DNA of 64,000 bases, from positions 38,374 to 102,373 of the forward strand of contig CAIUPP010000061.1 in NCBI GenBank assembly GCA_903901045.1. The letters are read 5' to 3'. The notes beneath the pieces were generated by a model. That model did no database searches. It saw only the letters and a program-made list of their open reading frames with translations, and had not been told where the DNA came from. Source of the stretch: an uncultured Planctomycetota bacterium. Its GTDB lineage: Bacteria; Planctomycetota; Brocadiia; CAIUPP01. Shown here piece by piece: positions 6,528-26,293 of this stretch. The translations under genes and the position numbers were made by a program. Within the stretch, counting starts at the first letter, position 1. Every line of letters starts with the position of its first letter.

Positions 6528-6540
6528 GGCTGTGAACGGA

Positions 6541-6683: not shown

Positions 6684-7154
6684 CTACCGAGGCATCTCGA
6701 ATTCCTGCTCGGGATGTCTCACGCTGAGCACCGGGCAGGGAGCTTTGCGGACCACTTTCTCCGCGACGGAACCGAACAGGGCGTGCTTGATGCCGCTGCG
6801 CCCGTGCGTGCCGCAGACGATCAGGTCCGCCTCGATCTCCTGCGCGCAGCGGATGATTTCGAGGAAGGGCGCCCCTTTGCGGATGAGATACTCCACCTTG
6901 AGCCGCGCGCGCACGTCGGCGGGGAGCAGTTCCTGCAGCGCCTTGTTCGCCTGCTTCTCGATGTCCGCCATGAGCTGCGCGAGGGGGGGCGTTTGAAGCA
7001 TGTCGAAGTAGAGCGCGCTGGAAATTTCCTCGATGACGTGGAGGATGACCAGTTTCGCGCTGAACTCATCCGACATGGAGATGGCGTACTTCATGGCGTG
7101 CTTGGACGGCTCCGAGAAGTCCGTCGGGTGGAGGATGGTTTTCATCTTGATCAT
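6684..7154 (-). CDS. universal stress protein (UspA family)
   Basis: 156 aa with Usp fold motifs (ILHVIE...GTHGRSG...GSVAEKV). Confidence 0.85.
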   Translation of the reverse strand: MIKMKTILHPTDFSEPSKHAMKYAISMSDEFSAKLVILHVIEEISSALYFDMLQTPPLAQLMADIEKQANKALQELLPADVRARLKVEYLIRKGAPFLEIIRCAQEIEADLIVCGTHGRSGIKHALFGSVAEKVVRKAPCPVLSVRHPEQEFEMPR

Positions 7155-11443: not shown

Positions 11444-11790
11444 GCAGACTCCTCAAGTCGCAAAGCGTCGCCGGGCATCAGCCCGACGCCGTCCAGGGCC
11501 CCGGCGGGCAATTCCAGCACGCACCGGGCGCCCCAGCAGGAGGCCAGCCGCCAGGGCTTCAGGCCAGGCGTCACTTTGCGCACCACCCAATCATCGTCCA
11601 GAAAGACCGCGTCGATCGCAAACCGCATGAAGAAAGTATGGATGCTCGCGCAGCGCTCGATCAACATGCCGCCGCCGGGGGGCAGACCGTCGCGCCCCAG
11701 CAGCCCGCGCATGCGCGCCGCCGTCGTCCGCGCTATCTCCACCCGGTCCGCAAGCACGCGGCCCGTGCGACTGTGGACCAATTTTACCAT
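11440..11790 (-). CDS. DUF192 (COG1430) family protein
   Basis: MVKLVHSRTGRVLADRVEIARTTAARMRGLLGR...MLIERCASIHTFFMRFAIDAVFLD matches DUF192. ATG at 11790. Confidence 0.65.
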   Translation of the reverse strand: MVKLVHSRTGRVLADRVEIARTTAARMRGLLGRDGLPPGGGMLIERCASIHTFFMRFAIDAVFLDDDWVVRKVTPGLKPWRLASCWGARCVLELPAGALDGVGLMPGDALRLEESA

Positions 11791-11792
11791 AG

Positions 11793-12310
11793 AATTGATA
11801 AGTGATGAGTGATGAATGTTGATTGATAATTGGTCATTGTTCGGCCTATTCCTGGCAAGACGTGACTGTGCGCACGGGGGCCCGATAGTTCGCCGTCTTC
11901 GAAGAGGCAACGCAGATCGCCGTCAACTCACCGACTTCCCGCAAGAGGCCCTCCATGCGTTTGGCCGGAATCATTTCAGCCGCCGCAATCAGGCGCAGCC
12001 AGTACTGGGCCTCGCGCAATTCTTTGACGACGATCTGCAGCTTGTGCGCAAAATCTCTCTTGCTCTCCGCGCCGCACGCTTCGCTGTAATTTGCCCCCGC
12101 AGAAGTGGCCGCGCGGAAAAGCTGAAGACTTACGTGCTGCGCCAGCGATGTTTTCGGCAGGGCCGAGGCAAGTCCGTAGGTTCGCGCGCCGAATCGAAGG
12201 AACCTCTCGCACAACTCCCTGCTATTCATCATCCCCTCGCCAACATGATAATTGTCGTTCTCCTGCTCCAATTATCAATCATCACTTATCACTCATCCAT
12301 TATCAATTCT
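11793..12310. repeat. cassette A: four-helix-bundle gene bracketed by ~40-bp inverted repeats made of tandem heptamers (GTGATGA/TTGATAA units)
   Basis: Left arm AATTGATAAGTGATGAGTGATGAATGTTGATTGATAATTG (~11793-11836). The reverse complement of the right arm (~12270-12310) is GAATTGATAATGGATGAGTGATAAGTGATGATTGATAATTG. Confidence 0.8.
11846..12232 (-). CDS. four-helix-bundle protein, '23S rRNA intervening-sequence protein' family (TIGR02436/PF05635-like), copy A
   Basis: Family core ATSAGANYSEACGAESKRDFAHKLQIVVKELREAQYWLRL; paralogous to copies B-D. Confidence 0.8.
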   Translation of the reverse strand: MMNSRELCERFLRFGARTYGLASALPKTSLAQHVSLQLFRAATSAGANYSEACGAESKRDFAHKLQIVVKELREAQYWLRLIAAAEMIPAKRMEGLLREVGELTAICVASSKTANYRAPVRTVTSCQE

Positions 12311-13246: not shown

Positions 13247-14119
13247 TCACACCTTGATCGAAACGATTCGCCAGATCATGAACACTCCGATCGCCTCCAT
13301 CACCACCACGCCCGCCATCATCAGCCAGCCGAGCCAGTGCGTGAACATGGGCCGCATGAGCTCCGGGCTCCAGGCGTTCAGCGCCAGGAAAATCAGCACC
13401 GGCAGCAGGCCGATGATCACCCCCTGCATTTTCCCCTGCGCGGTCAGCGAGGAGATCTTCCCCTGGATGCGGTGGCGGTCGCGGATGGTGTCGGCGATGT
13501 TGTCGAACACCTCGGCGAGGTTCCCGCCCACCTCGCGGCTGATGAGGATGGAGGTGATGAGAATGTCCAGGTCCTCGCCCGGCATGCGGTCGAGCAGGTG
13601 CTGGAGCGCGTCCTCCATCGTGACGCCCAGGCGCATCTCCTGCACCATCAGGCGCATCTCCTGCCCCATCGGGTTCTCCGTCTCGCGCGCAATCAGCTCG
13701 AACGCCGCCGGCAGGCTGTGGCCCGCGCGCAGACTGTTGCCCATCGCCACCAGCGCGTCCTCCAACTGCACGCCGAACTTCTTGTCCCGCCGCCACTTGA
13801 GGAAGCGCACGATGATGGTGGGGGTCGCGAACGCCGCGATCCCCACGAAAATCGCCAGCACGACGTTCAACGTCATGACGGCGAAAATAATGAACACGAC
13901 CAGCGTGGAAAGGAAAGAGAGGTAGAGGATCTGCTGGACTGTCATGGTCAGGTACATTGCGTCGAGGGTGCGCGTGGCGCCGGAGACGTACTTCTCCTCG
14001 TAGGTCTTGAACCCCTTGGAGAGGAACGCCATCAGCCCGTACATCAGCAGCACGACGGCGAAGAACGCCGCGCCGAGGGTCACCACCGTCCAGGCCTGAC
14101 TCAGTTGGCCGGGGTTCAT
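13247..14119 (-). CDS. tadB: Flp pilus assembly protein TadB (T2SS-F domain)
   Basis: 290 aa polytopic protein with GspF-like domain, adjacent to tadC and cpaF. Confidence 0.85.
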   Translation of the reverse strand: MNPGQLSQAWTVVTLGAAFFAVVLLMYGLMAFLSKGFKTYEEKYVSGATRTLDAMYLTMTVQQILYLSFLSTLVVFIIFAVMTLNVVLAIFVGIAAFATPTIIVRFLKWRRDKKFGVQLEDALVAMGNSLRAGHSLPAAFELIARETENPMGQEMRLMVQEMRLGVTMEDALQHLLDRMPGEDLDILITSILISREVGGNLAEVFDNIADTIRDRHRIQGKISSLTAQGKMQGVIIGLLPVLIFLALNAWSPELMRPMFTHWLGWLMMAGVVVMEAIGVFMIWRIVSIKV

Positions 14120-14120
14120 C

Positions 14121-15755
14121 TCATTCCTCCACCGGCTTGAACAGTGCCAGGTCCACCGGCACGCCGCGCTCGCGCAGCTCCTGCACGAACTTCGGGATTG
14201 CGCCGGTGGCCGTCATCACCCCCAGCACGCGGCCATGCTCGTCGTATCCCTTCTGTCGGAACTCGAAGATCGGCTGCATGATGACCGTGTCCTGCTCCAT
14301 GCCGGTGATCTCGGAGATGTTGGTGATCTTGCGCGTGCCGTCCGGCAGGCGCGCGCCGTGGACGATGAGGCTGATGGCGGCGGTGATCTGCTCGCGGATG
14401 GCGCGGCTGGGCAGATCGAGGCCGGCCATGAGCACGAGCGTTTCCAGGCGCGCCAGGACGTCGCGCGGGCTGTTCGCGTGGAGCGTGGTGAGCGAGCCAT
14501 CGTGGCCGGTGTTCATGGCCTGGAGCATGTCGAGCGCCTCGCCGCCGCGGCACTCGCCGACGACGATCCGGTCGGGCCGCATGCGCAGGGCGTTGATGAC
14601 GAGCTTTCGGATCGGCACCTCCCCCTTCCCCTCGATGCTGGGGGGCTTGCTTTCCAGGCTGATCACATGCTCCTGCGCGAGTTGCAGTTCGGCGGCATCC
14701 TCAATGGTGATGATGCGCTCGGTCGATGGAATGAAGCCGCTGAGGATGTTCAAGAGGGTGGTCTTGCCCGAGCCGGTGCCGCCGCTGATGACGGCGTTCT
14801 TGCGGTTGACCACGCCGATCTGAAGGAAATCGGCCATCGCCTGCGAGAGCGAGCCGAAGCGGATGAGGTCGGTGGTGGTGAACGGGGTGCGCGCGAATTT
14901 GCGGATGGTGAGCGTGGGGCCGGTGAGCGCCAGCGGCGGGATGATGGCGTTCACGCGCGAGCCGTCGGCCAGGCGCGCGTCCACCATGGGGCTGGACTCA
15001 TCCACGCGCCGCCCGATGGGCGCCAGGATGCGCCGGATGACCGCCAGAAGCTGCTCGTTGCTGGTGAAGCGCTTGTCGGTCAGCTCCAGCCGGCCATGCC
15101 GCTCGATGTAGATCTTGTCCCAGCCGTTGACCATCACTTCGTCCACGGAATCGTCGGCCAGGAAATCCTCCAGCGCGCCCAGCGCGATGGCCTCGTCCAC
15201 GACCTCCTTGACCAGCGCCTCCGAGGTGAGCCAGGAGGGGCGCTCCGAGGCGAACTTGGCGACGGCGGCGCGGGCGGCGACCGAGGTTTTGCCCCGCACT
15301 TCCTCCGTGGTCTTCTCCGTCAGGTCGGTGTGCTTGAGGTCGAGAGAGGCGAGGATTTCATCATGGATCTTCTTCTTCAGTTCGACCGGCGTGCGGCGGT
15401 CCGGGCCGAGGCGGGGATGTTTCGCGGAACTGGGCGGCTTGCCCACCGCTTCGGGGGCGGCCTCGCCGGCATGGAAGGTGAGCGTGAACGGCCCGATGCG
15501 AATGACGTTGCGCTCCCCCAGCGGCGCCTGCCCGATCACCTTGGCGCTGTTGAGGAAGGTGCCGTTGCGGCTGCCCAGGTCGTGCAGCACGTAGGCCTTG
15601 TCCTCGTAAGCGACGATGCAATGCTCGCGAGAGATGCTGGGGTGGTCGAGCACGAGGTGGTTGACGCCGGCCTTCTTGCCGATCTTGAAGGGCAGCGGGT
15701 CCAGCGGAACGCTGCGCGCGGAGCCGCTTTCGTCTCGCAGGATCAGTACCGCCAT
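14121..15755 (-). CDS. cpaF: CpaF/TadA secretion ATPase with N-terminal FHA domain fusion
   Basis: FHA N-terminus (IGKKAGVNHLVLDHPSISREHCIV...LHDLGSRNGTFLN), then Walker A (GGTGSGKTT) and VirB11/CpaF motifs. Confidence 0.9.
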   Translation of the reverse strand: MAVLILRDESGSARSVPLDPLPFKIGKKAGVNHLVLDHPSISREHCIVAYEDKAYVLHDLGSRNGTFLNSAKVIGQAPLGERNVIRIGPFTLTFHAGEAAPEAVGKPPSSAKHPRLGPDRRTPVELKKKIHDEILASLDLKHTDLTEKTTEEVRGKTSVAARAAVAKFASERPSWLTSEALVKEVVDEAIALGALEDFLADDSVDEVMVNGWDKIYIERHGRLELTDKRFTSNEQLLAVIRRILAPIGRRVDESSPMVDARLADGSRVNAIIPPLALTGPTLTIRKFARTPFTTTDLIRFGSLSQAMADFLQIGVVNRKNAVISGGTGSGKTTLLNILSGFIPSTERIITIEDAAELQLAQEHVISLESKPPSIEGKGEVPIRKLVINALRMRPDRIVVGECRGGEALDMLQAMNTGHDGSLTTLHANSPRDVLARLETLVLMAGLDLPSRAIREQITAAISLIVHGARLPDGTRKITNISEITGMEQDTVIMQPIFEFRQKGYDEHGRVLGVMTATGAIPKFVQELRERGVPVDLALFKPVEE

Positions 15756-15860: not shown

Positions 15861-16727
15861 CTACGGTTGCGGAACAAACTCTTCCAGCGACCCCTGCTTC
15901 TTCAGGCGCTCGTCTCGGTCCTTGCGGGCGGTGGCGGCCAGGTCGAGCAGGTTCTTGTCGCTGACATCCTGAGCCTCCGGGACGTTGGTGTCGGCGACCG
16001 GGCTCCGCAGGGACATGGTCAGCGCGCCATCCTGCTGCGCGTAGACCAGAAGGTTCGCCTCCAGCGGGCTGACCGCCACGGTGATGGTGCTGTAGCTCTT
16101 GACGCGCGCGCCGTTGCTGATGACGTACTCCTCGTCATGCGTGCGGCTGTCCACGGCGAGGATGCGCACGTTGTCCAGCAGCAGCACGGTGTGGCTGGCG
16201 GTAGCGCCGGTCATCGGGGCGCCCGCGGCGGCCGGGGCGCGAGCCGCCGCCCCTTGCTGCGTGCTGGTCGGGAACGTGCCGATGACGTCCACCCGGCTCC
16301 CGGGAACCAGGTTGCCGGCGACGCCGGTGACGTTATCCACGCGCAGCGTGACCGCGCGCTCGCCGGCGTTGAGCTTCTGCTCGAGCTTCTCCACCGGCTG
16401 CCGGAAATAACTCCAGCGCAGCGGCTCGCCGCGCTCCACGGTCTTGTTGATGACCTGCCCGAGGAACCGCTGGTCGTCGGCCATGATGTCGTCCGCCGTG
16501 ACGGTCGACTCGGTGACGATCTTGCCGGGGAGGTTGTCCACGTCCTTGTAGAGCATCTTCGGCAGGACGGGGGTGCCCGCCGTGATACGCTCGCCGGCCG
16601 CCGCGATGCGCTGCGGCTTGAACTTGTTCTGGAAGTCGTTCTGCCGGTTCTGAAGCACCTTCTGGAACCCATAGACGGCGACGAGGCCCAGGACCACGGC
16701 CAGGATCAAGGCGAGCTTGTTCTTCAC
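15861..16727 (-). CDS. cpaB: Flp pilus assembly protein CpaB/RcpC (SAF domain)
   Basis: Likely GTG start at ~16727 preceded by GGAGG. TM anchor (MKNKLALILAVVLGLVAV) and CpaB-type domain. Confidence 0.8.
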   Translation of the reverse strand: MKNKLALILAVVLGLVAVYGFQKVLQNRQNDFQNKFKPQRIAAAGERITAGTPVLPKMLYKDVDNLPGKIVTESTVTADDIMADDQRFLGQVINKTVERGEPLRWSYFRQPVEKLEQKLNAGERAVTLRVDNVTGVAGNLVPGSRVDVIGTFPTSTQQGAAARAPAAAGAPMTGATASHTVLLLDNVRILAVDSRTHDEEYVISNGARVKSYSTITVAVSPLEANLLVYAQQDGALTMSLRSPVADTNVPEAQDVSDKNLLDLAATARKDRDERLKKQGSLEEFVPQP

Positions 16728-17233
16728 TGCATTTCCTCCTTGGGGCCCGCTGCGGCGGGACCCCGGTTGGGGACGGAGGCCTGGCGCATGAGGGTGACGG
16801 CTGAGCCGCCTCCTGCGCCCGCCTCGACGATGCTTATGATACACCAACTGCCGGTAGGGTCTGCAAATGTCAGGGGCATCCCGCCGGGCTCCTCCATCAT
16901 GCCCGGCAAGCGTTGCGTTGTCCAGCCCCGCGCGGGCATTTCATGCCTGTAGAACTCCGCGACCGCGTCGGCGGACTCGCGGCTGACGTAGCGAACCAAT
17001 ACGCGCCCCGAGCCCGGCGCGGAGTTCAGGATGCCGGCCAGTTGCGATTCCGGCGGCGCGGGGATGTTCTCCAGCGCCCGCCCCGCCCTGCCCGTTGCCC
17101 CGCGCTCCACAATTGCGGGCAATAATCCGTAATGGCCGATGGCGAAAGACAAGGCTACGATAAGCCCGGCGCCTGCAAGACGGAAAACGATTTCTGACTT
17201 CTGATTCCTGAATTCTGATTTCTGATTTGCCAT
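16724..17233 (-). CDS. hypothetical small membrane protein; N-terminus (MANQKSEFRNQKSEI) encoded by heptamer-repeat arm
   Basis: 169 aa with one TM helix. Overlaps cpaB start by 4 nt. The first 15 codons are the TTCTGAT tandem repeat. Confidence 0.4.
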   Translation of the reverse strand: MANQKSEFRNQKSEIVFRLAGAGLIVALSFAIGHYGLLPAIVERGATGRAGRALENIPAPPESQLAGILNSAPGSGRVLVRYVSRESADAVAEFYRHEMPARGWTTQRLPGMMEEPGGMPLTFADPTGSWCIISIVEAGAGGGSAVTLMRQASVPNRGPAAAGPKEEMQ

Positions 17234-17702
17234 GTTTCACATGCTACGTTGACAATTCGTCCTGTCTGAGTGAGTCCGCATTCTTCCGCGACTTGTACGT
17301 GGTGACCGCGGCGACGAAGATACGGATCAACTGGTCTGCCTCGTCGAGCATCCCGGTCAGACGCTTTGCGGGCAAGAGTCCGGCTTCGGCTATCAGCCGC
17401 AGCCAATACTCGCTCTCGCGCAATTCCTTCAAAGATATCTGCATCTTGTGAAGGAAATCCTGGCGGCTTTCCGCCCCTGACGCCTCACAGTAGTTTGCCC
17501 CGGCGGAGGTGGCGGCCCGCATGAGTTGAAGGCCGACATGCCGCCCCGTGGCCGACTTGGTCAGCGCATTTGCCACATGAATACTTCGGACTCCGAATTG
17601 CAGCAGCCTCCGGTTCAAGTCGTGCTTGTCCATGCTGTGCGCTCCCGATGAAACCTCACACTGCTCTCCGCCCGAGGCACAAATCAGAACTCAGAAATCG
17701 TT
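17186..17702. repeat. cassette B: four-helix-bundle gene bracketed by inverted heptamer-repeat arms (TTCTGAT units)
   Basis: Left arm CGATTTCTGACTTCTGATTCCTGAATTCTGATTTCTGATTTG. Right arm reverse complement is AACGATTTCTGAGTTCTGATTTGTG (shorter arm). Confidence 0.75.
17244..17633 (-). CDS. four-helix-bundle protein, 23S-IVS-protein family, copy B
   Basis: Family core ATSAGANYCEASGAESRQDFLHKMQISLKELRESEYWLRL. Confidence 0.8.
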   Translation of the reverse strand: MDKHDLNRRLLQFGVRSIHVANALTKSATGRHVGLQLMRAATSAGANYCEASGAESRQDFLHKMQISLKELRESEYWLRLIAEAGLLPAKRLTGMLDEADQLIRIFVAAVTTYKSRKNADSLRQDELST

Positions 17703-18721
17703 TACCACCGTTTCCAAAGATTCTGCGTCGCATCATTCACCGCGGGCAGCGCGACGGCGCCAAGCAGGTCGGCGGCCTCTCCCAGCACCGCGGCGGAGGT
17801 GTGCCCTTGCTCGCCGGCGGCCAGCCGCGTTCCATTCCCCGTGACGTGGCCGGTCAGGTCCATCGTGAACTCCCACTGCGGGCGGCTCGTGGGGTTGGGG
17901 TACGTGCCGGTGATGTAATTTCCCAGCGTGGTGGGCGCCTCGTCCGTTGCCCGGAAGACGGAGGGGAAGTAGGGGGGGCTGTACGTGGCGCGCAGGTCCG
18001 CGTGGCGACGTTCGAGCCAGTGCGTGCCGCCGACGCCGTCGAAGGCGGATGCGATCCAGGCGGTGGTGTTGTCGATGACCGGCGGAGTGGCCTCGTCGGC
18101 GGTTACGAACCCGCCGCCGAGCTCCACTCCACCAGCTAGAGGGTTCAAGTAATGTGCGGGGGAAAATTTGTCGCCATATTCCGTATTCGAGACTTCCGTG
18201 ATCCCCTTGACCGCGTCCCAGACGAAGCTCTGCGTGGTCACCCCCAGCGCGTAATTCCAGAGGCTGACGGCAAGCCGCTCGCGGTCGAACGTGTCCGGCT
18301 GGCCGCCCCCCATCAGGGGGCCGGTCGTCAATTGGGTGGGGATTTCCTGGCGGTAATAGTCGTCGAGCTGGCTTGAGAGCTCGGACGCCTCCAGCGTCAG
18401 GTCTCCCTGGGCGGCCGCCGTCTGGCCGCCGCTGACGGGGCGGACATTGTCCGGCGTCCCCCCGCCGGAGGGCCAGAGCTTCATCAGCAACAGGTCCGCC
18501 GGCTGAGCCGTGGGCATCCAGACGGCAAACGTCGCCGCCTTGACGGCGCGCTGCCGGGTCAGCGTCGCATAGCCGAAGTAAAGCACCCCCAGCACGATCA
18601 GCATGTACAGCGGCATGACCAGCGCGGTTTCGACCATCGCCGTTCCGCGGAGCGAACGACAACGGCGAGCGTAGAGTGTAGAGTGCAGAGTGATGAGTGT
18701 AGAGCTATTCATTTTTCTCAT
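17702..18721 (-). CDS. tadE: TadE/TadG-like pseudopilin with long repeat-encoded leader
   Basis: Contains RGTAMVETALVMPLYMLIVLGVL (class-III signal / TadE-like N-terminus). Leader residues STLITLHSTLY are encoded by the GTAGAGT repeat arm. Confidence 0.7.
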   Translation of the reverse strand: MRKMNSSTLITLHSTLYARRCRSLRGTAMVETALVMPLYMLIVLGVLYFGYATLTRQRAVKAATFAVWMPTAQPADLLLMKLWPSGGGTPDNVRPVSGGQTAAAQGDLTLEASELSSQLDDYYRQEIPTQLTTGPLMGGGQPDTFDRERLAVSLWNYALGVTTQSFVWDAVKGITEVSNTEYGDKFSPAHYLNPLAGGVELGGGFVTADEATPPVIDNTTAWIASAFDGVGGTHWLERRHADLRATYSPPYFPSVFRATDEAPTTLGNYITGTYPNPTSRPQWEFTMDLTGHVTGNGTRLAAGEQGHTSAAVLGEAADLLGAVALPAVNDATQNLWKRW

Positions 18722-19167
18722 GGGCCATGTTCCTCTTCACAGTTACGACAGATCGGACCGCCATGGCGGTTAACTCACTGCATTCCCGCAAGGCGCCGTC
18801 GAGTTGTGCCGGCGGCAACAAACGGCTCTCCCTGGCAAGAGTCAGCCAGTAGTCCGTTTCGCGCAGTTCTTTGATGACAACCTGCAGCTTATGCACGAAA
18901 TCCGCACGGCTCTCAGCGCCCTTTGCCTCCCTGTAATTTGCCCCAGCCGACGTGCCCGACCGTAGCACCTGCTTGGCAATCACTCTGCCAGCCATGGTCT
19001 TGGGCATAGCCTGCGTAAGGCGAATCACCTCGATAGCGTAGGCCAGCAGGCGCTTGTCCAGCATGCCCTCACGTTCTGCCATCGCCATAACTCCCCGCTC
19101 AGGTCCTTGTCCTCGTCCTTGTTCACTCTGCATTCATCGCTCTGCACTCTACACTCTACGCTCGCCG
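18665..19167. repeat. cassette C: four-helix-bundle gene bracketed by inverted heptamer-repeat arms (GTAGAGT units)
   Basis: Left arm GGCGAGCGTAGAGTGTAGAGTGCAGAGTGATGAGTGTAGAGC. Right arm reverse complement is GGCGAGCGTAGAGTGTAGAGTGCAGAGCGATGAATGCAGAGTGA. Confidence 0.8.
18705..19088 (-). CDS. four-helix-bundle protein, 23S-IVS-protein family, copy C
   Basis: Family core RSGTSAGANYREAKGAESRADFVHKLQVVIKELRETDYWLTL. The 3' end overlaps the tadE-like start by 17 nt. Confidence 0.8.
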   Translation of the reverse strand: MAMAEREGMLDKRLLAYAIEVIRLTQAMPKTMAGRVIAKQVLRSGTSAGANYREAKGAESRADFVHKLQVVIKELRETDYWLTLARESRLLPPAQLDGALRECSELTAMAVRSVVTVKRNMAHEKNE

Positions 19168-21738
19168 TTAATGTTCCACCACATCGCTCATCTGCCTATT
19201 CCCATAGTCGAGAACCGGCGTGATCGGCTTGCCGTACTCGTCGCGGCGCTGGCTCATCTGGCGCATCTTGAGGGCGATGCTGGGGTCTCCCTGCCCGTTG
19301 AATTGGGTGGCCCAGCCGCTTGAATCGTAGCCGGAGGCGAACTGCGCGCTGAGCACCGTATCCCACAGGTAGGAGAGGGCGTTTTCGGTTTCGAGCGTGA
19401 TCGCCTGCCCCTGAATGATCTCGTCATCCAGGTCGTAATCCTGCATCTGATCGCGCGAGGGATAGAGCTTTGCCGTCGCGCCCGCCATGTACAGATTGTT
19501 CGGGTCCTGCTCGACCCAGTTTGCTCGATCCGCCTTGCCGCCGAACTGGTACCGCGTTCCGCCGCCGTCGTCCGGAACGCCCACGCGCGAGCAGGAGATG
19601 GCGACGTACCCCCAGGGCGGCTGTAGCGCCTGCGGGAAGAGCATGGGGAGGTCGGGTTGCTTGTAGACTCCGACATTGACGCCATACTTGAAGAACTCAT
19701 CCGTCAGCACCAAGGGGTATCCGGCCGGTGCCGCGGGGGCGTTGCGGAGAATGTAGGAATCGTACCGGTGAACGCGGCTGTCCAGAAAGTCGGTGTCCGT
19801 CCATCCACGCTGACCGTCGGTGATGGACAGATCATAGGAGCGCGGGTCCGGCGGGTTGATGCGACCGGAGGGGATATCCGCGATGAAGACCCGGATATCC
19901 GTGGCCCCGTCGCGGTTGTTATCGTAACCGCCGCAGACTTTACATACTTCCTTGTGCGTCCCCTGGTTGGGATCATTGGGATCGTTGGGGACATCCACAA
20001 CGCCGCTCCCGCCGCAGCCCAAGGGAGGCTCCGGGCAGGGCTCCGTCTGGTAGTAGGCGTCCTCCGGAGGGTCCTCATTGGGCTGGAGGATCGCCAGGCT
20101 GCCGGGCGGACGCAGCGGATAGGTGTGCCGCCAGAACGGCTCGCGGGGACCCGCCGTGCCCGTATTGTCCGGGATCGGATTGAACCAGGCCGTCCACGCC
20201 GGCAGTTGGTTCCCGGAGATGCCGCGGTCGCCGAAGGCATGGGTGTAGACGTACCGATTCATATTCCTTTCGCGGGACAGCATCGCCCCGGAGGTCTCGT
20301 GATCGTATTGCCATTGCTTGAGTCCACCGTGCTCCGGGACCACTTCGGTAAGCTGCTGGCGCGACCAGACCTGCTCGGTCGGGTCGAACCACTTGCGCCA
20401 GCGGCCGTCCGCGTCACCGGCGGTGAGGCTGAACCCGCCCGCCGTGACGCTGAAGGAGTTCGGGTCGAAGCCGTGGACGCCGATCGTGACCGGGCCCAGA
20501 GTGGTCGAGATGGTCGGGGGGTCGCTCAAGGTCAAATGGGCGTGGCCGATGGTGACCTGGGTGGGGTCCCCGATGGTCGCGCTGGCGTCGCCGGGGAAGT
20601 GGATAACGTTGGTGACGTTCATCCGCACTTCCACCCCGGCGATCGTGGTCGTGTTGCTGGTCATGTCGGTGTAGGAGTGCGCGGCGTTGTCCCAGAGGTA
20701 CAGGTGGCCGTTGCCCGCGTTCTTGAAAGTCTGGGAAAGGTTGCCGCAGGTGACTTTCGTCCCCTCCTTGGTCCCGTCGCCGTCCATGTCCACTTTCTCG
20801 AAGGAGATAGTCGGCAGGGAGGGGCCGCCGTTCGCGGCCTGTCCCCAGACCACCCAGCCGAGGTCGTCGGTCTTGACCAGGTAAATCTCCTCGGTCAGCG
20901 CCCCGTTGGTGTAGAAGCTGATCTTCCAGCGGTTGGGGGATTCCTGGCTGATGATCACCTCGGTTTCGGTGACCCCTTCCAGGGAGTACAGGATGTGCCA
21001 CTGCCCGTCCACCAGCGTCACCTGGATCATCTCCTTGCTGCCGCCGGTGAGGTTGGTGACGCGCCAGCCGTTGCCCAGTTGCTCGATGCTGAAAGAGATG
21101 AGACTCTCCGGGTAAGGGAAGAGCCGCTGGCTGGGGAAGACGCTGAGGCGCTCTCCGCCGGCGCGCGTGCCGATGGCGAACATCTCCTCGGCGAGCAGGC
21201 GCGGGGTGAGGATGGCGACGGCGTTCTCCGTCTGCGAGAGCTGCACCATCAGGCTCTTGGCCTGCGGCAGGGCGGTGTTGGCGAGGTCCCATGCCTGCCG
21301 GTGCGCCATGACGGCCGGGCCGGAGGCAACGCCGCCGGTGCGGATCAGTTCCATGCGCGCGGCGACGCCGGTGACGTTCACATCCACGGCATACTTCAGC
21401 GAGTTGTAGTACGTCTGCGCCATGGCGCTGTTGATCCAGCCGATGGCGCTCAGGCTGTTCGCTTCCACCATCGCGCCGGAGTACGCCGCCGAGTCCGCCG
21501 CCACCTGCACCCGCGTGCGCCCCTCGATGATCCGCCCCAGGTTGTACACCAGCGCCACGAACCCCACCAGCACGATCAGGCTCGCCGCGGCGAAGATAAT
21601 CCCCTGGCCGCGCTCGTCGCGCAGGAAACGGCGAAAACTGAGAACTGAGAACTGGGAACTGAAAGTTGCGAAAGAACGGCCCCTCCGCGCCATAGCGCGG
21701 TGGACCGGAATCGGCTCGTTATTCTTGCATGCACTCAT
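19168..21738 (-). CDS. tadG: large TadG-like pilus-assembly/pseudopilin protein (856 aa)
   Basis: N-terminal RRFLRDERGQGIIFAAASLIVLVGFVALVYNLG (TadG N-terminal domain type). The leader contains repeat-encoded FSSQFSVLSF. Confidence 0.65.
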   Translation of the reverse strand: MSACKNNEPIPVHRAMARRGRSFATFSSQFSVLSFRRFLRDERGQGIIFAAASLIVLVGFVALVYNLGRIIEGRTRVQVAADSAAYSGAMVEANSLSAIGWINSAMAQTYYNSLKYAVDVNVTGVAARMELIRTGGVASGPAVMAHRQAWDLANTALPQAKSLMVQLSQTENAVAILTPRLLAEEMFAIGTRAGGERLSVFPSQRLFPYPESLISFSIEQLGNGWRVTNLTGGSKEMIQVTLVDGQWHILYSLEGVTETEVIISQESPNRWKISFYTNGALTEEIYLVKTDDLGWVVWGQAANGGPSLPTISFEKVDMDGDGTKEGTKVTCGNLSQTFKNAGNGHLYLWDNAAHSYTDMTSNTTTIAGVEVRMNVTNVIHFPGDASATIGDPTQVTIGHAHLTLSDPPTISTTLGPVTIGVHGFDPNSFSVTAGGFSLTAGDADGRWRKWFDPTEQVWSRQQLTEVVPEHGGLKQWQYDHETSGAMLSRERNMNRYVYTHAFGDRGISGNQLPAWTAWFNPIPDNTGTAGPREPFWRHTYPLRPPGSLAILQPNEDPPEDAYYQTEPCPEPPLGCGGSGVVDVPNDPNDPNQGTHKEVCKVCGGYDNNRDGATDIRVFIADIPSGRINPPDPRSYDLSITDGQRGWTDTDFLDSRVHRYDSYILRNAPAAPAGYPLVLTDEFFKYGVNVGVYKQPDLPMLFPQALQPPWGYVAISCSRVGVPDDGGGTRYQFGGKADRANWVEQDPNNLYMAGATAKLYPSRDQMQDYDLDDEIIQGQAITLETENALSYLWDTVLSAQFASGYDSSGWATQFNGQGDPSIALKMRQMSQRRDEYGKPITPVLDYGNRQMSDVVEH

Positions 21739-21815
21739 GGTATTGTTACCTCAATCTCAACATCGCGCCATCTTTCAGTTCTCAGTCTTCAGTCTTCAGT
21801 CTTCAATTCTCGCCG
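21630..21815. repeat. 'empty' heptamer inverted-repeat pair (GAGAACT units) whose ~105-bp loop holds only the tadE-stop/tadG-start junction
   Basis: Left arm GGCGAAAACTGAGAACTGAGAACTGGGAACTGAAAG. Right arm reverse complement is GGCGAGAATTGAAGACTGAAGACTGAAGACTGAGAACTGAAA. Confidence 0.7.
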
Positions 21816-21822
21816 TCCTTCA

Positions 21823-22407
21823 TCACTCGCCCCACGGATGCGCCAGCACGCAACTGCCGGTCATCAGCCAGTGCGCCGCGCCTCCCCACTTCGAGCGGTC
21901 CACGTCGAGGCCGGGGGTCAGGTCGCCCAGCGCGTAGAGGGCGTCGCCGGCGATTGGCACATTCAATTCGTAGTCATGCGATACGTCGGCGTGGATCACC
22001 GGCTGGCCGTTGACCGAATCGGGGTAGACGTTGACGTCGGTCTTCAGTTCCGCCGCGGCGCTGCCGGGGAGCGTCCCCCAGCCGGGCAGGGTGATGGTGT
22101 CGTTGGCGACGACGCCGGAAGTTCCCGTGATGCGGCTCAGCGGGATCAGCGCCGCGCGCTTGCAGGCGGTCGGGTCGATCGCCGGCGACTGCGCCAGCCC
22201 CGCGCGCGCCGCGCAAAAAGCGCTGTACTCGATCACCTGCTGCGCGATGAACAGATGGGCCAGTTGAATGATGACCAGCGTGATCAGCAGTTGGAGCGGG
22301 AAGATGATGGCGTATTCAACCAGCGCCTGCCCCGACTCCGCGCGGGCGGCGCGGCGAGAACTGAAAACTGAGAACTGAAAACTGAGAACTGAGAGTTGGC
22401 GGTTCAT
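21823..22407 (-). CDS. tadE: TadE-like pseudopilin
   Basis: RRAARAESGQALVEYAIIFPLQLLITLVIIQ is a TadE N-terminus. Leader MNRQLSVLSFQFSVFSS is encoded by the repeat arm. Confidence 0.75.
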   Translation of the reverse strand: MNRQLSVLSFQFSVFSSRRAARAESGQALVEYAIIFPLQLLITLVIIQLAHLFIAQQVIEYSAFCAARAGLAQSPAIDPTACKRAALIPLSRITGTSGVVANDTITLPGWGTLPGSAAAELKTDVNVYPDSVNGQPVIHADVSHDYELNVPIAGDALYALGDLTPGLDVDRSKWGGAAHWLMTGSCVLAHPWGE

Positions 22408-22824
22408 CGCGCAGCTCCTTTGTTCGACTTCGCCGTCACCACGGACTTCACGCCTATGGAGATCAGTTCATTCACCTCACTGGCAATGCCGTCCAGGCGA
22501 GCCGGCTTCAACAAATGGGCGTTGCGGCAAAGCTCAATCCAATAGAGCGTCTCGCGCAGTTCTTTCACTACAATCTGCATCTTGTGCGCAAAGTCGGCGC
22601 GACTCTCGGCGCATCTCGCCTCGCAGTAGTTGGCGCCAGGCGACGTGCCGGATCGCAGCAATTGCAGTCCCACATGCCGCCCCGCCGCCGTCTTGGGCAG
22701 CGCGTTCGTCATCGCGATGACCCTCACGGCCAGTTCTTGCAGGCGCTCACCATAATTGCCGCTCTGCGCCACGTTTTATCCTCTCAGTTCTCAGTCTTCA
22801 GTTCTCAGTTTTCAGTTCTCGCCG
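22353..22824. repeat. cassette D: four-helix-bundle gene bracketed by inverted heptamer-repeat arms (GAGAACT units)
   Basis: Left arm GGCGAGAACTGAAAACTGAGAACTGAAAACTGAGAACTGAGAG. Right arm reverse complement is GGCGAGAACTGAAAACTGAGAACTGAAGACTGAGAACTGA. Confidence 0.8.
22404..22772 (-). CDS. four-helix-bundle protein, 23S-IVS-protein family, copy D
   Basis: Family core RSGTSPGANYCEARCAESRADFAHKMQIVVKELRETLYWIEL. GTG start. Confidence 0.8.
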   Translation of the reverse strand: MAQSGNYGERLQELAVRVIAMTNALPKTAAGRHVGLQLLRSGTSPGANYCEARCAESRADFAHKMQIVVKELRETLYWIELCRNAHLLKPARLDGIASEVNELISIGVKSVVTAKSNKGAAR

Positions 22825-22825
22825 T

Positions 22826-23374
22826 TTACTTCAGCAGCAACTCCATCCACGCCCACACAACCCCGATCCCGATGGCCACGCCGTACGGGATCGTCGTCGC
22901 CGGCGCGCCGTCGGCCGGCTTGGCGCGAAGAGTGAAGAGGGCGCGCAGGCTGGATTTGAGGCCGGACAGGAGCCGTCGCTGCCAGATCAGCACGCAGACG
23001 GCAATGGCCGCGCCCACGAGGGCGGCATACATCAGCGCGATGATCACGAAGCCGATGGCGCTGACGCCCGCCGCGCCCGCGAAGGGGGCCAGCGCGCCGA
23101 CGGCCCCCATCATCTTGACGTCTCCCGCGCCCAGGCTGCCCATGAAATAGACCACCAGCAAAATGCCCGCCCCCACCCCCGCCGCCAGCGCCGCGTTGCC
23201 GAGGTGCCAGAAGCCCGGCTGGTTCGTGTCCATCAGGTACGCGCTGGCCAGCCCGATCGCTAGCGCCCCCAGCGTCACCCAGTTATAAAGCTTCCCGCGC
23301 GCCATGTCGGTGTAGACGCACACGACCGCCAGCGCGAGAAGACAACCCTGCCGAACCAGTTCTATGGTTGCCAC
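22826..23374 (-). CDS. tadV: prepilin peptidase (A24 family; CpaA/TadV)
   Basis: 182 aa polytopic protein with the conserved GAGDVKMMGAVG motif. Confidence 0.85.
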   Translation of the reverse strand: MATIELVRQGCLLALAVVCVYTDMARGKLYNWVTLGALAIGLASAYLMDTNQPGFWHLGNAALAAGVGAGILLVVYFMGSLGAGDVKMMGAVGALAPFAGAAGVSAIGFVIIALMYAALVGAAIAVCVLIWQRRLLSGLKSSLRALFTLRAKPADGAPATTIPYGVAIGIGVVWAWMELLLK

Positions 23375-23603: not shown

Positions 23604-23852
23604 TCAGAACGTATTGACGTTCTTTCCAGAAGTGGCGGTGTCCGCCTCGCTGCTCTTGTCCTGAACGGTCTGTTCCGTGCCGGTGCCGATCCGCTTGACT
23701 TCGCTGCCGAACAGCGCTCGGATCTGGTCCCCGAAGATCAGGATCACGGCGATGGAGCTGACCGCCACGAGCGCGACGATGATCGCGTACTCGGCCGTCG
23801 TCTGTCCCTTCCGGCTCTTCAACCCGCTCACCTTCATAATCCACTGACGCAT
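23604..23852 (-). CDS. flp: Flp/Fap pilin
   Basis: Flp motif G|QTTAEYAIIVALVAV after a short basic leader. Confidence 0.8.
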   Translation of the reverse strand: MRQWIMKVSGLKSRKGQTTAEYAIIVALVAVSSIAVILIFGDQIRALFGSEVKRIGTGTEQTVQDKSSEADTATSGKNVNTF

Positions 23853-23885
23853 TTCAGTACCCTCCAAAAGTTAACTCTTAAGACC

Positions 23886-24558: not shown

Positions 24559-25113
24559 TCAGCGGCCACACTCCACCTGGCTCCGGTAGAGGGAGCTGCC
24601 GGCAGCATCAATCGCGACGATGGCGGGGAACTCCTGAACCGTCATCTCCCTAAGCGCCTCGGGGCCCAGGTCTTCGTACGCGATCACCCGGGACGCCGTG
24701 ATGCACTTCGCCAGAAGCGCGCCCGCCCCTCCAGTGGCGGCGAAGTACACCGCGCCGTGGCGCTTCATCCCCTCGATGACGGCCGGGGAGCGATCCCCCT
24801 TGCCGATCATCCCGCGCAGCCCCAGGGCGATCAGCCGCGGGGCGTAGGCGTCCATGCGATAACTCGTGGTCGGACCCGCCGCGCCGACCACCTGCCCCGG
24901 CGCGCCGGGCGTGGGGCCGACGTAATAGATGATCGCGCCGCGCAAGTCGACCGGCAGCGGCTCGCCGCGGTCGAGCGCGGCGACCAGCCGCTTGTGCGCG
25001 GCATCGCGCGCAGCGTAGAGGATTCCGCTGATCCGCACCGGCGTCCCCGCCGTCAATCGGCGCGCCGCCTCCTCGCTGAGCGGGGGGGTGATCCTGACGG
25101 GAGCGCTATCCAT
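24559..25113 (-). CDS. class-I fumarate hydratase / L(+)-tartrate dehydratase beta subunit
   Basis: 184 aa matching the FumA C-terminal / TtdB catalytic domain (GPTTSYRMD..., KGDRS...). Confidence 0.8.
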   Translation of the reverse strand: MDSAPVRITPPLSEEAARRLTAGTPVRISGILYAARDAAHKRLVAALDRGEPLPVDLRGAIIYYVGPTPGAPGQVVGAAGPTTSYRMDAYAPRLIALGLRGMIGKGDRSPAVIEGMKRHGAVYFAATGGAGALLAKCITASRVIAYEDLGPEALREMTVQEFPAIVAIDAAGSSLYRSQVECGR

Positions 25114-25274
25114 ACTTCTCCTCTTCCCTGCTGCGCCGATCTATTCACCGCGGAGGCGCGGAGAACGAACGACGCCGTCTTTCATCTCTCAGTTCTCAGT
25201 CTTCAGTTCTCAGTTCTCGCCGTCCTGCGCATCTCCGGGGTGAAAAGGGCAAACGCCCGTCTCGGAGAGAACGT

Positions 25275-25381: not shown

Positions 25382-26293
25382 TCACAAGACGACTTCCGCA
25401 TGCCGATGGCTGTGGCAGTCCAGGTTGACGGCGACCGGCAGCGCCGCGAGGTGGCATGGGGCCGATGCAACGTGCACCGCCAGCGCTGTGACTTCCCCGC
25501 CCAGCCCCATCGGGCCGACCCCGGTGGCATTGATTTGAGTGAGCAGTTCGCGCTCCAGTTCGGCATCCAGCGCGTTGGCCGCCGGCTGGCCCAGCGGCCG
25601 CAGGAGCGACTCCTTGGCCAGCAGCGCGCATTTCTCGAAGTTTCCGCCGAGGCCCACCCCGACGATGACCGGCGGGCAGGGATTGCCCCCGGATTCGCGC
25701 ACGGCGCGCACGACGAACTCCACCACCCCCTCGCGCCCGGCCGAGGGGGGGAGCATCGCCAGGCGCGACATGTTCTCGCAGCCCCCGCCCTTGGCGGCGA
25801 AGAGAATGCGCAGGCGGTCGCCCGGGACGATGCGCGTGTGCAGGATGGCCGGCGCGTTCGTGCCGGTATTCCTGCGGGTGAGCGGGTGGTCGAGGATGCT
25901 CTTGCGCAGGTGGAAGCGGTTGGCGCCTTCGGCCACCGCCTGCTGAACCGCTTCGGCCAGGTCGCCGCCGGTGAGATGAAGCTCCTGCCCGATCTCCAGG
26001 AAGATCACGGAGACGCCGGTATCCTGGCAGAGCGGCCGGCGCTCGGCCCGGGCGATTTCGGCGTTGTGCTGAAGGTCGGCCAGGATAGCGCGTCCGATGG
26101 CGCTGCTCTCGCGCGCCGCGGCGGCGGCCAGCGCCGCGCACTCCGCGCCGCCCAGGTCAAAAGTGGCCTGTTCGATCAGTCGCAGCAGCGCCGCCTGAAG
26201 CTCTTTCACCGGCAACTCGCGCACGGCGGACCCTCTCCGCAAAACGGGAAACCTGCCTGCACGATATGATAGCAGCTTGCCGCAGCGGTGCAA
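25382..26293 (-). CDS. class-I fumarate hydratase / tartrate dehydratase alpha subunit
   Basis: Fe-S-dependent hydrolyase alpha domain (CQDTGVSVIFLEIG..., HLRKSILDHPLTRRNTGTN..., FAAKGGGCENMS). Confidence 0.8.
   Translation of the reverse strand: MHRCGKLLSYRAGRFPVLRRGSAVRELPVKELQAALLRLIEQATFDLGGAECAALAAAAARESSAIGRAILADLQHNAEIARAERRPLCQDTGVSVIFLEIGQELHLTGGDLAEAVQQAVAEGANRFHLRKSILDHPLTRRNTGTNAPAILHTRIVPGDRLRILFAAKGGGCENMSRLAMLPPSAGREGVVEFVVRAVRESGGNPCPPVIVGVGLGGNFEKCALLAKESLLRPLGQPAANALDAELERELLTQINATGVGPMGLGGEVTALAVHVASAPCHLAALPVAVNLDCHSHRHAEVVL

What the first reader, a model, noticed from the sequence alone, without database searches (positions are those of the whole stretch)
21630..21815. 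'Empty' heptamer inverted-repeat pair enclosing only a gene junction
A GAGAACT-unit inverted-repeat pair (arms ~21630-21668 and ~21774-21815) has a 105-bp loop. The loop contains just the tadG start codon (21738). The tadE stop lies right after the right arm.

The architecture is the same as cassettes A-D but without a four-helix-bundle gene. This is either an unoccupied site, which would imply that the four-helix-bundle genes are passengers inserted into pre-existing stems, or a remnant after loss of the gene. In either case every tad gene boundary from tadV down to cpaB carries such a stem. This suggests that the stems define processing or translation-coupling points of the operon.
Basis: seen in the sequence. 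Interest (0 to 1): 0.7.

Follow-up and report, generated by a model that had tools for sequence, protein, structure and literature searches.

The report
Gene-less heptamer-repeat hairpin at tadE–tadG junction
The repeat pair is real: it is a gene-less copy of a little-described hairpin element made of 7-base repeats, whose full-size relatives carry the mystery protein found inside ribosomal-RNA intervening sequences, and here it wraps around the start of a pilus gene.

Summary
Two inverted arrays of GAGAACT-type heptamers (21627-21668 and 21769-21816) can form a ~43-bp stem around a 100-nt loop on the tad mRNA, which is the minus strand (dG -88.7, z -6.1).

One correction: the loop holds TadG's ribosome-binding site and ATG, and the 3' arm lies inside the TadG reading frame, so it is translated.

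[quoted passage not shown] In 75 PF05635 loci from many phyla, period-7 arrays flank the gene in 59 (upstream) and 57 (downstream) cases, against 6 of 148 control regions.

The same tadE–tadG junction in 15 related loci takes several forms:
- gene-less with other heptamer units;
- doubled;
- filled with a PF05635 gene (one distant relative);
- repeat-free, including two relatives that keep a cassette next door.

So the stem is a recurrent but dispensable occupant, not an obligatory operon signal.

Most likely it is an IVS-like hairpin element cut by RNase III and tolerated because it sits in spacer and disposable N-terminal coding sequence. The mechanism is inferred, not shown. I found no wobble-pair signature of selection on the sense RNA. 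Novelty: a new variant of a known kind.

The parts
21769..21816 (-). 5' arm on the tad mRNA: ACGGCGAG + AATTGAA GACTGAA GACTGAA GACTGAG AACTGAA AG. It is purine-rich and carries TGA in all three frames. It starts 6 nt after the TadE stop.
21669..21768 (-). 100-nt loop. It is orthologous to the loops of the gene-less pairs in L012 (58% identity) and has no PF05635 remnant.
21748..21752 (-). Shine-Dalgarno-like GAGGT, 9 nt upstream of the ATG. It is conserved in L012 within TTGAGGTRA..TACCATGAG.
21736..21738 (-). ATG, the first in-frame start of the TadG-like ORF, 35 codons before the conserved RRF motif.
21685..21700 (-). Small GC hairpin CCGCGC-TATG-GCGCGG presenting a second in-frame ATG (21691-21693). 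Some gene calls start here (841-aa form). L010 has a similar hairpin with an ATG.
21627..21668 (-). 3' arm: CAACTTTCAG TTCCCAG TTCTCAG TTCTCAG TTTTCGCCGTT. It has no stop in any frame and is translated as ..FATFSSQFSVLSF.. in the N-terminal tail of TadG. It ends directly before the RRFLRDERGQG codons.
21823..21825 (-). Stop codon (TGA) of the TadE pseudopilin ORF 21823-22407.
19168..21738 (-). TadG-like gene (PF13400), 856 aa. Its first ~36 codons lie in the loop and 3' arm.
22354..22826 (-). Filled sibling cassette with the same unit. The 5' arm is 22781-22826, the PF05635/TIGR02436 ORF is 22404-22772 and the 3' arm is 22354-22400. The TadE ATG (22407) overlaps the ORF's stop (ATGA), and the 3' arm is translated as the TadE leader MNRQLSVLSFQFSVFSS.
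25178..25219 (-). Solo GAGAACT array with the same ACGGCGAG outer end, between the fumarase alpha and beta genes. Its partner arm has decayed.
18661..19169 (-). Filled cassette after tadG. The unit is GAGTGTA/GAGTGCA and the PF05635 ORF is 18705-19133. The start of the next TadE-like gene (18721) lies inside it.
17189..17701 (-). Filled cassette after the TadE-like gene. The unit is GATTTCT, the PF05635 ORF is 17244-17633, and the short 5' arm is about 17679-17701.
11790..12308 (-). Filled cassette after tadC. The unit is AATTGAT and the PF05635 ORF is about 11847-12232.

Best explanation
The pair is a gene-less member of a family of 'heptamer-array hairpin' elements. Full-size members carry one promoterless PF05635 gene, the protein encoded in 23S rRNA intervening sequences.

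**What happens on the tad mRNA.** The purine-rich 5' array and the pyrimidine-rich 3' array pair into an imperfect stem of about 43 bp. The stem closes a 100-nt loop that holds TadG's ribosome-binding site and ATG. The 3' arm is read as part of TadG's variable N-terminal tail.

**Shown here**
- The structure and its significance.
- Its kinship with the neighbouring cassette.
- The cross-phylum link between PF05635 genes and inverted heptamer arrays.
- The age of the gene-less state.
- The turnover of whole elements at fixed junctions.

**Inferred**
1. The stem is a substrate for RNase III, as shown experimentally for the Coxiella IVS and for the heptamer-repeat hairpin in the Haemophilus hmw 5'-UTR.
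2. Cutting would sever flp-tadV-tadE from the distal genes and remove TadG's start codon. It would therefore uncouple and lower distal expression. Uncut transcripts would initiate in the open loop.
3. The element persists because it sits in sequence that is free to vary: the spacer plus a disposable leader or tail.
4. The arms stay complementary through DNA-level processes, namely repeat slippage and template switching or conversion with the neighbouring cassette, rather than through selection on RNA wobble pairs.
For: **Structure**
- z -6.1; 14 arrays against 0.38 expected.

**Same family as the filled cassette**
-.
- PF05635/TIGR02436 identity of the cassette genes.

**Family-wide survey of 75 PF05635 loci from many phyla**
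- Period-7 arrays upstream in 59/75 and downstream in 57/75, against 6/148 control regions.
- 50 loci have both arrays, and 39 of these have reverse-complementary units.
- 46/50 have the same polarity as this pair, with a purine-rich 5' arm.
- The upstream neighbour is co-oriented in 54 cases against 2, which suggests dependence on host transcription.

**The same junction in relatives**
- Pairs with four mutually incompatible unit families. Own-partner duplexes average -51 kcal/mol and other-locus duplexes -26.
- A doubled pair in L012, a filled junction in L016 and empty tadV–tadE pairs in L010 and L013.
- Arms are 94-98% identical between the window and L012. The loop is 58% identical and flanking coding DNA 81-84%.

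**Start codon in the loop and translated arm**
-. In L010 both arms plus the loop encode the TadE leader.

**Experimental precedents for RNase III cutting heptamer-repeat stems**
- PMC4990558.
- PMC12721329.
Against: - There are no expression or RNA-end data for this organism.
- Sense and antisense arm duplexes are equally stable: 24:24 in the tad loci and 22:24 in 46 diverse cassettes. So there is no G-U signature that the sense RNA structure is what selection sees.
- RNase III excision would cut TadG off from its start codon, which looks costly.
- Four orthologous junctions lack the stem, so it is not needed for Tad function.
- Arm sequence is conserved beyond what pairing alone needs, which could point to a sequence-specific binder instead.
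- How such elements move is unknown. No target-site duplication and no transposase were seen.
Confidence: 0.5

Rival explanations
1. Trans-acting protein site. The heptamer arrays, as RNA or DNA, are sequence-specific binding sites for the PF05635 protein. The gene-less pair is then controlled or mobilised in trans by the product of the neighbouring cassette that has the same GAGAACT unit.
For: - Gene-less pairs share their unit family with a filled cassette in the same operon.
  - Window and L012: GAGAACT.
  - L010: GAGTGCG/GATTGCG beside a GAGTGCA/GAGTGTA cassette.
- Arms are more conserved than the loop or coding DNA.
- A whole cassette, protein plus its unit, was copied to another slot in L010.
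- PF05635 proteins are 50-60% identical across phyla.
- PF05635 includes Avd, which binds nucleic acid and reverse transcriptase in diversity-generating retroelements (PMC10053308; details from my own knowledge).
Against: - No binding data exist, and the only close solved structure (2RLD) is uncharacterised.
- Unit sharing is equally explained by local duplication or gene conversion.
- Two other pairs in the window (units CAACGTT and AATCGCC) have no cognate gene within 64 kb.
Confidence: 0.2
2. Host-selected operon punctuation. The stems are kept by the host as processing, stability or translation-coupling signals that set the ratios of Tad proteins.
For: - Stems sit at four consecutive tad boundaries.
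- They recur at the same junction in most relatives, always ending at the same codon position.
- The start codon lies in an open loop.
- In the filled cassettes the downstream gene's ATG overlaps the PF05635 stop (ATGA), a classic coupling arrangement.
Against: - The stem is absent in L018, L025, L014 and L015, although the tad genes are intact and L014 and L015 keep a cassette next door.
- The same elements occur at unrelated junctions: usp–uvrC, fumarase alpha–beta and around an RlmB-like gene.
- They also occur beside unrelated genes in many phyla.
- A ribosome stopping at the TadE stop would open only the outer few pairs of a 43-bp stem (inference).
Confidence: 0.15
3. Neutral by-product. 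Heptamer arrays arise and grow by replication slippage. Inverted copies are made and perfected by template switching. The pair has no function and is simply tolerated.
For: - Heptanucleotide repeats are reported as the commonest long simple repeats in most bacterial genomes and are attributed to polymerase slippage (Mrazek 2007, as summarised in PMC4679880).
- There is no strand asymmetry in pairing.
- Presence is patchy among relatives.
- Unit families differ by single substitutions.
Against: - Arms are conserved well above the neighbouring loop and coding DNA.
- The association with one protein family is tight (59/75 against 6/148).
- Polarity is constant (46/50).
- The co-orientation rule holds in 54 cases against 2.

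These are hard to obtain without selection or a dedicated mechanism.
Confidence: 0.12
4. Phase-variation switch. A 7-nt repeat array sits between the start codon and the body of TadG (and of TadE). It shifts the frame when one unit is gained or lost, switching the pilus genes off and on.
For: - The 3' arrays lie inside the 5' coding region, and 7 is not a multiple of 3.
- Heptamer repeats drive phase variation of surface proteins elsewhere: neuO (PMC13001214) and hmw (PMC12721329).
- Pili are typical phase-variable structures (my own knowledge).
Against: - Nine assemblies from several metagenomes are identical in every array, with 1 SNP in up to 13.8 kb.
- The unit count of both arms is the same in L012.
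- The arrays have only about 5 units.
- This model does not explain the inverted partner or the PF05635 link.
Confidence: 0.05

Closest known systems
23S rRNA intervening sequences that encode S23p/PF05635 (Coxiella burnetii, Leptospira)
   Same: - They have a PF05635 ORF between terminal inverted repeats.
- The Coxiella stem region contains tandem heptamers (GACAGAT x2-3).
- RNase III cuts in the stem, at the start of the first repeat (PMC4990558).
- The ORF is co-oriented with the host transcript.
- ORF-less IVSs also exist in rRNA (PMC4990558; bioRxiv 10.1101/2024.02.27.582315), which parallels filled against empty here.
   Different: - The element here sits in an mRNA operon junction, not in an rRNA helix.
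- It has no ORF.
- Its loop carries the host gene's ribosome-binding site and start codon.
- One arm is translated.
Heptamer-repeat 5'-UTR hairpin of Haemophilus influenzae hmw1A
   Same: A tandem heptamer array, (ATCTTTC)n, is transcribed upstream of a surface-adhesin gene and forms the arm of a long hairpin. RNase III processes the hairpin and expression changes (PMC12721329).
   Different: - There the partner arm is a G-rich region, not an inverted copy of the array.
- The array is long and phase-variable.
- It lies in a 5'-UTR, not across a start codon.
- It has no link to PF05635.
TAACTGA direct heptamer repeats of Beggiatoaceae, Cyanobacteria and Bacteroidetes (MacGregor 2015)
   Same: - The unit is almost the same: AACTGAG/AACTGAA here against AACTGAT there, 6 of 7.
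- 'Forward' arrays carry stops in all frames and lie just upstream of start codons.
- Reverse arrays are open and are translated as SV(L/I/F)S..QF peptides, as in the TadE and TadG N-termini here.
- Horizontal spread is suspected and a post-transcriptional role has been proposed (PMC4679880).
   Different: Those are direct repeats (169 sets, one inverted) with no partner arm. No link to PF05635 was reported.
Cyanobacterial STRR heptamer repeats, including those inside the RNase P RNA gene
   Same: They are tandem heptamers dispersed in transcribed, non-protein-constrained positions, including within a structural RNA gene. The title of Vioque 1997 is cited in PMC7593598. That the arrays extend an existing helix is from my own memory.
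   Different: - The phylum and the units differ.
- An inverted-pair architecture around genes has not been described, as far as I could find.
Paired tandem hepta/octanucleotide sites of Geobacter metallireducens ('global regulator binding sites')
   Same: They are pairs of 4-5 tandem 7-8-nt repeats on opposite strands at a variable distance, present at dozens of sites (PMC2700814).
   Different: They were interpreted as DNA-binding sites. The content between the arms was not analysed, and I did not test whether they flank PF05635 genes.
Correia/NEMIS miniature elements of Neisseria (my own knowledge, not checked here)
   Same: They are short gene-less inverted-repeat elements co-transcribed with neighbouring genes. 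They fold into hairpins that RNase III cleaves, which changes mRNA levels.
   Different: Correia elements have defined 26-bp terminal repeats, a conserved interior, TA target duplications and hundreds of near-identical copies. Here only the repeat arms are shared, and no target duplication is seen.

Membership tests
PF05635 heptamer-array cassette / IVS-type element | Two inverted arrays of tandem heptamers able to form a long stem | tested here: met
   The family-wide rule is established (59/75 and 57/75 against 6/148 controls).
PF05635 heptamer-array cassette / IVS-type element | Purine-rich 5' arm and pyrimidine-rich 3' arm | tested here: met
   46/50 cassettes have this polarity. The 5' arm of this pair is (GARAACT)n.
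PF05635 heptamer-array cassette / IVS-type element | A PF05635/TIGR02436 ORF between the arms | tested here: not met
   The loop is 100 nt, with no ORF and no remnant. The feature is met by four neighbours. This pair is therefore a gene-less derivative or relative, not a full member.
PF05635 heptamer-array cassette / IVS-type element | Shares ends and unit with a full member in the same genome | tested here: met
   It has the same ACGGCGAG/CTCGCCGT outer ends, the same GAGAACT unit and the same inner CTGARAG/CTYTCAG ends as cassette 22354-22826.
23S rRNA intervening sequence (strict sense) | Inserted in a helix of 23S (or 16S) rRNA | tested here: not met
   It lies between protein genes of a tad operon. 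There is no rRNA in the window.
23S rRNA intervening sequence (strict sense) | Excised from the transcript by RNase III | not testable with these tools
   Only precedents are available (PMC4990558; PMC12721329).
MITE (non-autonomous DNA transposon) | Terminal inverted repeats | tested here: met
MITE (non-autonomous DNA transposon) | Target-site duplication flanking the element | tested here: not met
   The flanks are GATGAAGG|...|TTCCTGCG here and GAAGTAA|...|CGCCGCCC at the sibling. Neither shows a direct repeat.
MITE (non-autonomous DNA transposon) | Many copies that also share the interior sequence | tested here: not met
   The loop matches nothing else in the window or in 160 loci. Only the arms are shared.
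MITE (non-autonomous DNA transposon) | An autonomous partner that encodes a transposase | tested here: not met
   The only gene in full members is a ~120-aa four-helix bundle with no known catalytic domain.
Intrinsic terminator | Short GC-rich hairpin followed by a T run | tested here: not met
   0 sites in 21300-23000.
Phase-variable simple-sequence contingency locus | Repeat-number polymorphism between closely related genomes | tested here: not met
   Nine assemblies are identical, and the unit count is the same in L012. Consensus assemblies would hide minority variants.
Any Rfam family | A covariance-model match | tested here: not met
   The window gives only a tRNA at gathering score. Nothing credible appears at E<=1 in 21500-22900.

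The most novel reading that the evidence does not exclude
PF05635 genes with their inverted heptamer arrays are a cross-phylum class of promoterless mobile cassettes that has not been recognised as such. They colonise transcribed, weakly constrained sites: rRNA helices, where they are called IVSs, and operon junctions and leader-peptide codons, as here. The heptamer arrays would be the recognition sites of the four-helix-bundle protein. Gene-less hairpins such as this one would be non-autonomous members acted on in trans. They can take over the start codon and N-terminus of the host gene downstream.
Probability: 0.25. Interest if true: 0.85.

Novelty: new variant of a known kind. Interest (0 to 1): 0.62.

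Why it matters
The origin and purpose of rRNA intervening sequences, and of their PF05635 protein, have been open for over 30 years. The protein is still called 'functionally uncharacterized' in 2024.

This locus, with the 75-locus survey, shows that the same module lives mostly outside rRNA:
- a gene between inverted heptamer arrays;
- co-oriented with an upstream host gene;
- found in many phyla.

The module also has gene-less forms that can enclose a host start codon and be translated as part of a leader peptide. This gives three testable handles: RNase III cleavage, protein–heptamer binding, and filled or empty alleles at orthologous sites.

It also warns annotators that the N-termini of TadE- and TadG-like genes in these genomes are partly repeat-encoded.

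Most of this value lies in the general pattern. The single junction, taken alone, is a modest and probably dispensable feature.

Tried and rejected
- **Remnant of a deleted PF05635 gene in the loop.** blastn-short and three-frame translation of the 100-nt loop found nothing. Only a short ATGGCGC resembles the GTGGCGC start of the sibling ORF, which is too short to count.
- **Wobble-pair asymmetry as proof of selection on the sense RNA.** None was found: 24:24 and 22:24, p = 0.79-0.88.
- **'Stops in the 5' arm, open 3' arm' as a family-wide design.** It holds for this pair and its tad siblings but is weak across phyla: 35/50 5' arms and 30/50 3' arms have at least one stop-bearing frame.
- **Known RNA families.** None matched.
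- **Terminator or promoter.** None found.
- **Close relatives in species-representative genomes, using TadG as query.** None found. Relatives came from metagenome contigs instead.
- **Population polymorphism.** None. All nine contigs with the same TadE are clonal.
- **Organism name.** The only taxonomic hint is a homologue with 39% TadG identity labelled as a Candidatus Brocadiia MAG, which suggests Planctomycetota.
- **Literature.** Five full-text searches found no description of PF05635 cassettes with heptamer arms in operons. That is not proof that none exists.
Full report
**1. The observation**

On the + strand the region reads AACGGCGAAAACTGAGAACTGAGAACTGGGAACTGAAAGTTG (21627-21668) and CATCTTTCAGTTCTCAGTCTTCAGTCTTCAGTCTTCAATTCTCGCCGT (21769-21816).
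- The repeat finder gives a 36-nt inverted repeat, 81% complementary, with arms 100 nt apart.
- TRF gives period 7 on both sides.
- The minus strand of 21615-21830, folded as RNA, forms one long stem. dG is -88.7 kcal/mol against -63.5 +/- 4.1 for shuffles, so z = -6.1, and 0 of 200 shuffles fold as well.
- The window holds 14 period-7 arrays, against 0.38 expected.

**2. Gene context**

The region is a minus-strand tad operon:

| Feature | Coordinates |
|---|---|
| Flp | 23604-23867 |
| Prepilin peptidase | 22826-23374 |
| PF05635 ORF | 22404-22772 |
| TadE | 21823-22407 |
| TadG-like | 19168-21738 |
| PF05635 ORF | 18705-19133 |
| TadE-like | 17702-18721 |
| PF05635 ORF | 17244-17633 |
| orf169 | 16724-17233 |
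| RcpC | 15861-16847 |
| FHA-CpaF | 14121-15755 |
| TadB | 13247-14119 |

A further PF05635 ORF lies near 11847-12232. [quoted passage not shown] The closest solved structure is 2RLD, which is uncharacterised.

Each PF05635 ORF sits between inverted heptamer arrays with its own unit: GAGAACT, GAGTGTA, GATTTCT or AATTGAT.

**3. Anatomy on the sense strand**

The order is as follows.
- TadE stop (21825-21823), then 6 nt.
- 5' arm: ACGGCGAG + six GARAACT-type units.
- 100-nt loop.
- 3' arm: five AGTTCTC-type units + CGCCGT.
- The conserved TadG codons RRFLRDERGQG follow directly.

The loop contains GAGGT, then 9 nt, then the ATG at 21738. A second in-frame ATG (21693) sits in the loop of a small GC hairpin. 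No start codon lies downstream of the arm. The 3' arm must therefore be translated (..SFATFSSQFSVLSF..).

The same holds for the filled sibling. The TadE ATG (22407) overlaps the PF05635 stop (ATGA), and the 3' arm encodes the TadE leader MNRQLSVLSFQFSVFSS.

In L010, which has a gene-less pair at tadV–tadE, both arms and the loop encode the TadE leader.

Two points rest on my own knowledge and inference. TadE-type leaders are removed by the prepilin peptidase. The TadG tail precedes its membrane anchor. Both would make these positions tolerant of foreign sequence.

**4. Relation to the sibling cassette**

I aligned the arms of this pair, the cassette at 22354-22826, the solo array at 25178-25219 and the three L012 elements.
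- Similarity is confined to the arms. They share the outer ACGGCGAG/CTCGCCGT ends and the inner CTGARAG/CTYTCAG ends.
- The loop has no detectable PF05635 remnant.

**5. Relatives**

Nine metagenome contigs with the identical TadE are clonal, with 1 SNP in up to 13.8 kb. They are identical in all arrays.

TadG homologues, their contigs and a metagenome scan gave 15 orthologous tadE–tadG junctions:

| State of the junction | Loci |
|---|---|
| Strong stem (z <= -3.9) | window, L012, L019/L026, L020, L013, L021, L022, L016 |
| Weak stem | L010, L023, L027 |
| No stem | L018, L025, L014, L015 |

- L014 and L015 keep a PF05635 cassette at tadV–tadE.
- L012 has two tandem gene-less pairs. The first loop is homologous to the window's loop.
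- L016 has a PF05635 gene in this junction.
- Units differ between lineages: GAGAACT, GAGTGCG/GATTGCG, GAGTGCA, GTGAATG and GATTTCT. Arms pair with their own partner (mean -51 kcal/mol) far better than with arms of other families (mean -26).
- The 3' arm always ends 0-6 nt before the conserved RRF codons. Stem-less orthologues have N-terminal tails of 10-18 codons, and stem-bearing ones have 19-38.

**6. Turnover**

PF05635 proteins are positional orthologues between the window and its nearest relatives (83%, 92% and 86% identity). The slot after the TadE-like gene is an exception. In L010 it holds a copy of the tadC-slot cassette, with both its protein (85%) and its AATTGAT unit. This is a whole-cassette replacement.

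Neighbouring junctions in one genome tend to share a unit family.

Between the window and L012 the arms are 94-98% identical, the loop 58% and flanking coding DNA 81-84%. The arms are therefore either constrained or homogenised.

**7. The general rule**

Eighty PF05635 loci from species-representative genomes were fetched. They come from Planctomycetota, Nitrospirota, Desulfobacterota, Acidobacteriota, Bacteroidota, Chloroflexota, WOR-3 and others, and 75 were usable.
- The best periodicity next to the gene is 7 in 59/75 upstream flanks and 57/75 downstream flanks, against 6/148 control regions.
- Both flanks carry an array in 50 loci, and 39 of these have reverse-complementary units.
- The 5' arm is purine-rich in 46/50.
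- The upstream neighbour is co-oriented in 54 cases against 2, and the downstream neighbour in 56 against 9.

The module is therefore widespread. It is polar and rides on host transcripts.

**8. RNA or DNA?**

If selection acted on the sense-strand hairpin, mismatches should be biased towards G-U on that strand. They are not: 24:24 in the tad loci and 22:24 in 46 diverse cassettes. Complementarity is therefore probably maintained at the DNA level, or the arms are renewed too fast for such a bias to build up.

This does not exclude an RNA function, because the rRNA versions are cut by RNase III.

**9. What is known**

- The Coxiella IVS has a PF05635 ORF and 2-3 tandem GACAGAT heptamers in its stem region. 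RNase III cuts at the first repeat (PMC4990558).
- In H. influenzae, an (ATCTTTC)n array forms the arm of a 5'-UTR hairpin upstream of an adhesin gene. RNase III processes it (PMC12721329).
- TAACTGA direct repeats occur just upstream of start codons in Beggiatoaceae, Cyanobacteria and Bacteroidetes. Their unit matches the one here at 6 of 7 positions, and their function is unknown (PMC4679880).
- Paired tandem hepta/octanucleotide sites were listed in Geobacter metallireducens (PMC2700814).
- STRR heptamers occur inside the cyanobacterial RNase P RNA gene (title cited in PMC7593598).
- I found no paper that describes PF05635 cassettes with heptamer arms in operons, or their gene-less forms.
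- Rfam has no match, and the pair is not a terminator.

**10. Verdict**

The pair is a gene-less member of the PF05635 heptamer-hairpin family. It encloses the TadG start and is partly translated.

The most likely mechanism is an RNase III-sensitive stem in the tad mRNA, tolerated and perhaps mildly regulatory. I put confidence at about 0.5 overall: high for identity, moderate to low for the cleavage step. The rivals are:
- a protein-binding array acted on in trans;
- host-selected operon punctuation;
- a neutral product of slippage and template switching;
- a phase-variation switch.

The claim that the stems define obligatory operon processing points is not supported, because relatives do without them.

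Noticed in passing
window 6541-6588 and 6630-6672: A second gene-less heptamer pair lies between usp (6684-7154, -) and uvrC (5211-6545, -). The unit is CAACGTT/AACGTTG and the loop is about 41 nt. The duplex energy is -41 kcal/mol. The unit is nearly palindromic, so the arm polarity is ambiguous.
   Followed up: partly
window 35933-35976 and 36803-36846: An inverted heptamer pair (units AATCGCC/GGCGATT) encloses an ordinary SpoU/RlmB-like rRNA methyltransferase ORF (35988-36794, -) rather than a PF05635 gene. Its polarity is the reverse of the cassette rule. It may be the facing ends of two decayed elements.
   Followed up: partly
window 25178-25219: A solo GAGAACT array with the ACGGCGAG outer end sits between the fumarase alpha (25382-26293) and beta (24559-25113) genes. 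Only a decayed partner follows (..CGTTCGTTCTCC..).
   Followed up: partly
window 55241-55261: A short solo array, GCGAATA x3, has a unit related to the pair around the methyltransferase gene.
   Followed up: no
window 22404-22407 and 18705-18721: The start codons of TadE and of the TadE-like gene lie inside the upstream PF05635 cassettes (ATGA overlap at 22407). Their leader peptides are therefore encoded by the 3' repeat arm. Annotated N-termini of these pseudopilins are partly repeat-derived.
   Followed up: yes
L016 8726-9352 (also 7681-7856) and L012 2479-2895: Arrays of one unit occur as 5'-3'-gene-5'-3' or 5'-5'-3' series. Alternative pairings are therefore possible: two local hairpins, or one stem enclosing the gene.
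   Followed up: no
L010 11976-12487 compared with window 17189-17701: At the orthologous slot, L010 carries a copy of a different cassette (protein 85% identical to the tadC-slot one, same AATTGAT unit). The window has a GATTTCT cassette whose protein is only 50% identical. This points to whole-cassette replacement.
   Followed up: yes
L097-L176: PF05635 proteins from very different phyla are 43-61% identical to the window's. Their arm units are often variants of RARTGCA/AATGCAA. This suggests horizontal spread and possibly a preferred unit.
   Followed up: partly
window 14121-15755, 10208-11443, 8131-10197: The CpaF-type ATPase carries an N-terminal FHA domain. Two more FHA-domain proteins follow the tad genes, which is an unusual regulatory set for a Tad system.
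   Followed up: no
L001-L009: Contigs from at least seven metagenome samples (JGI, ENA, Logan) match the window at 100% identity (one at 99.99%) over up to 13.8 kb. This indicates one clonal, widely sampled population.
   Followed up: yes
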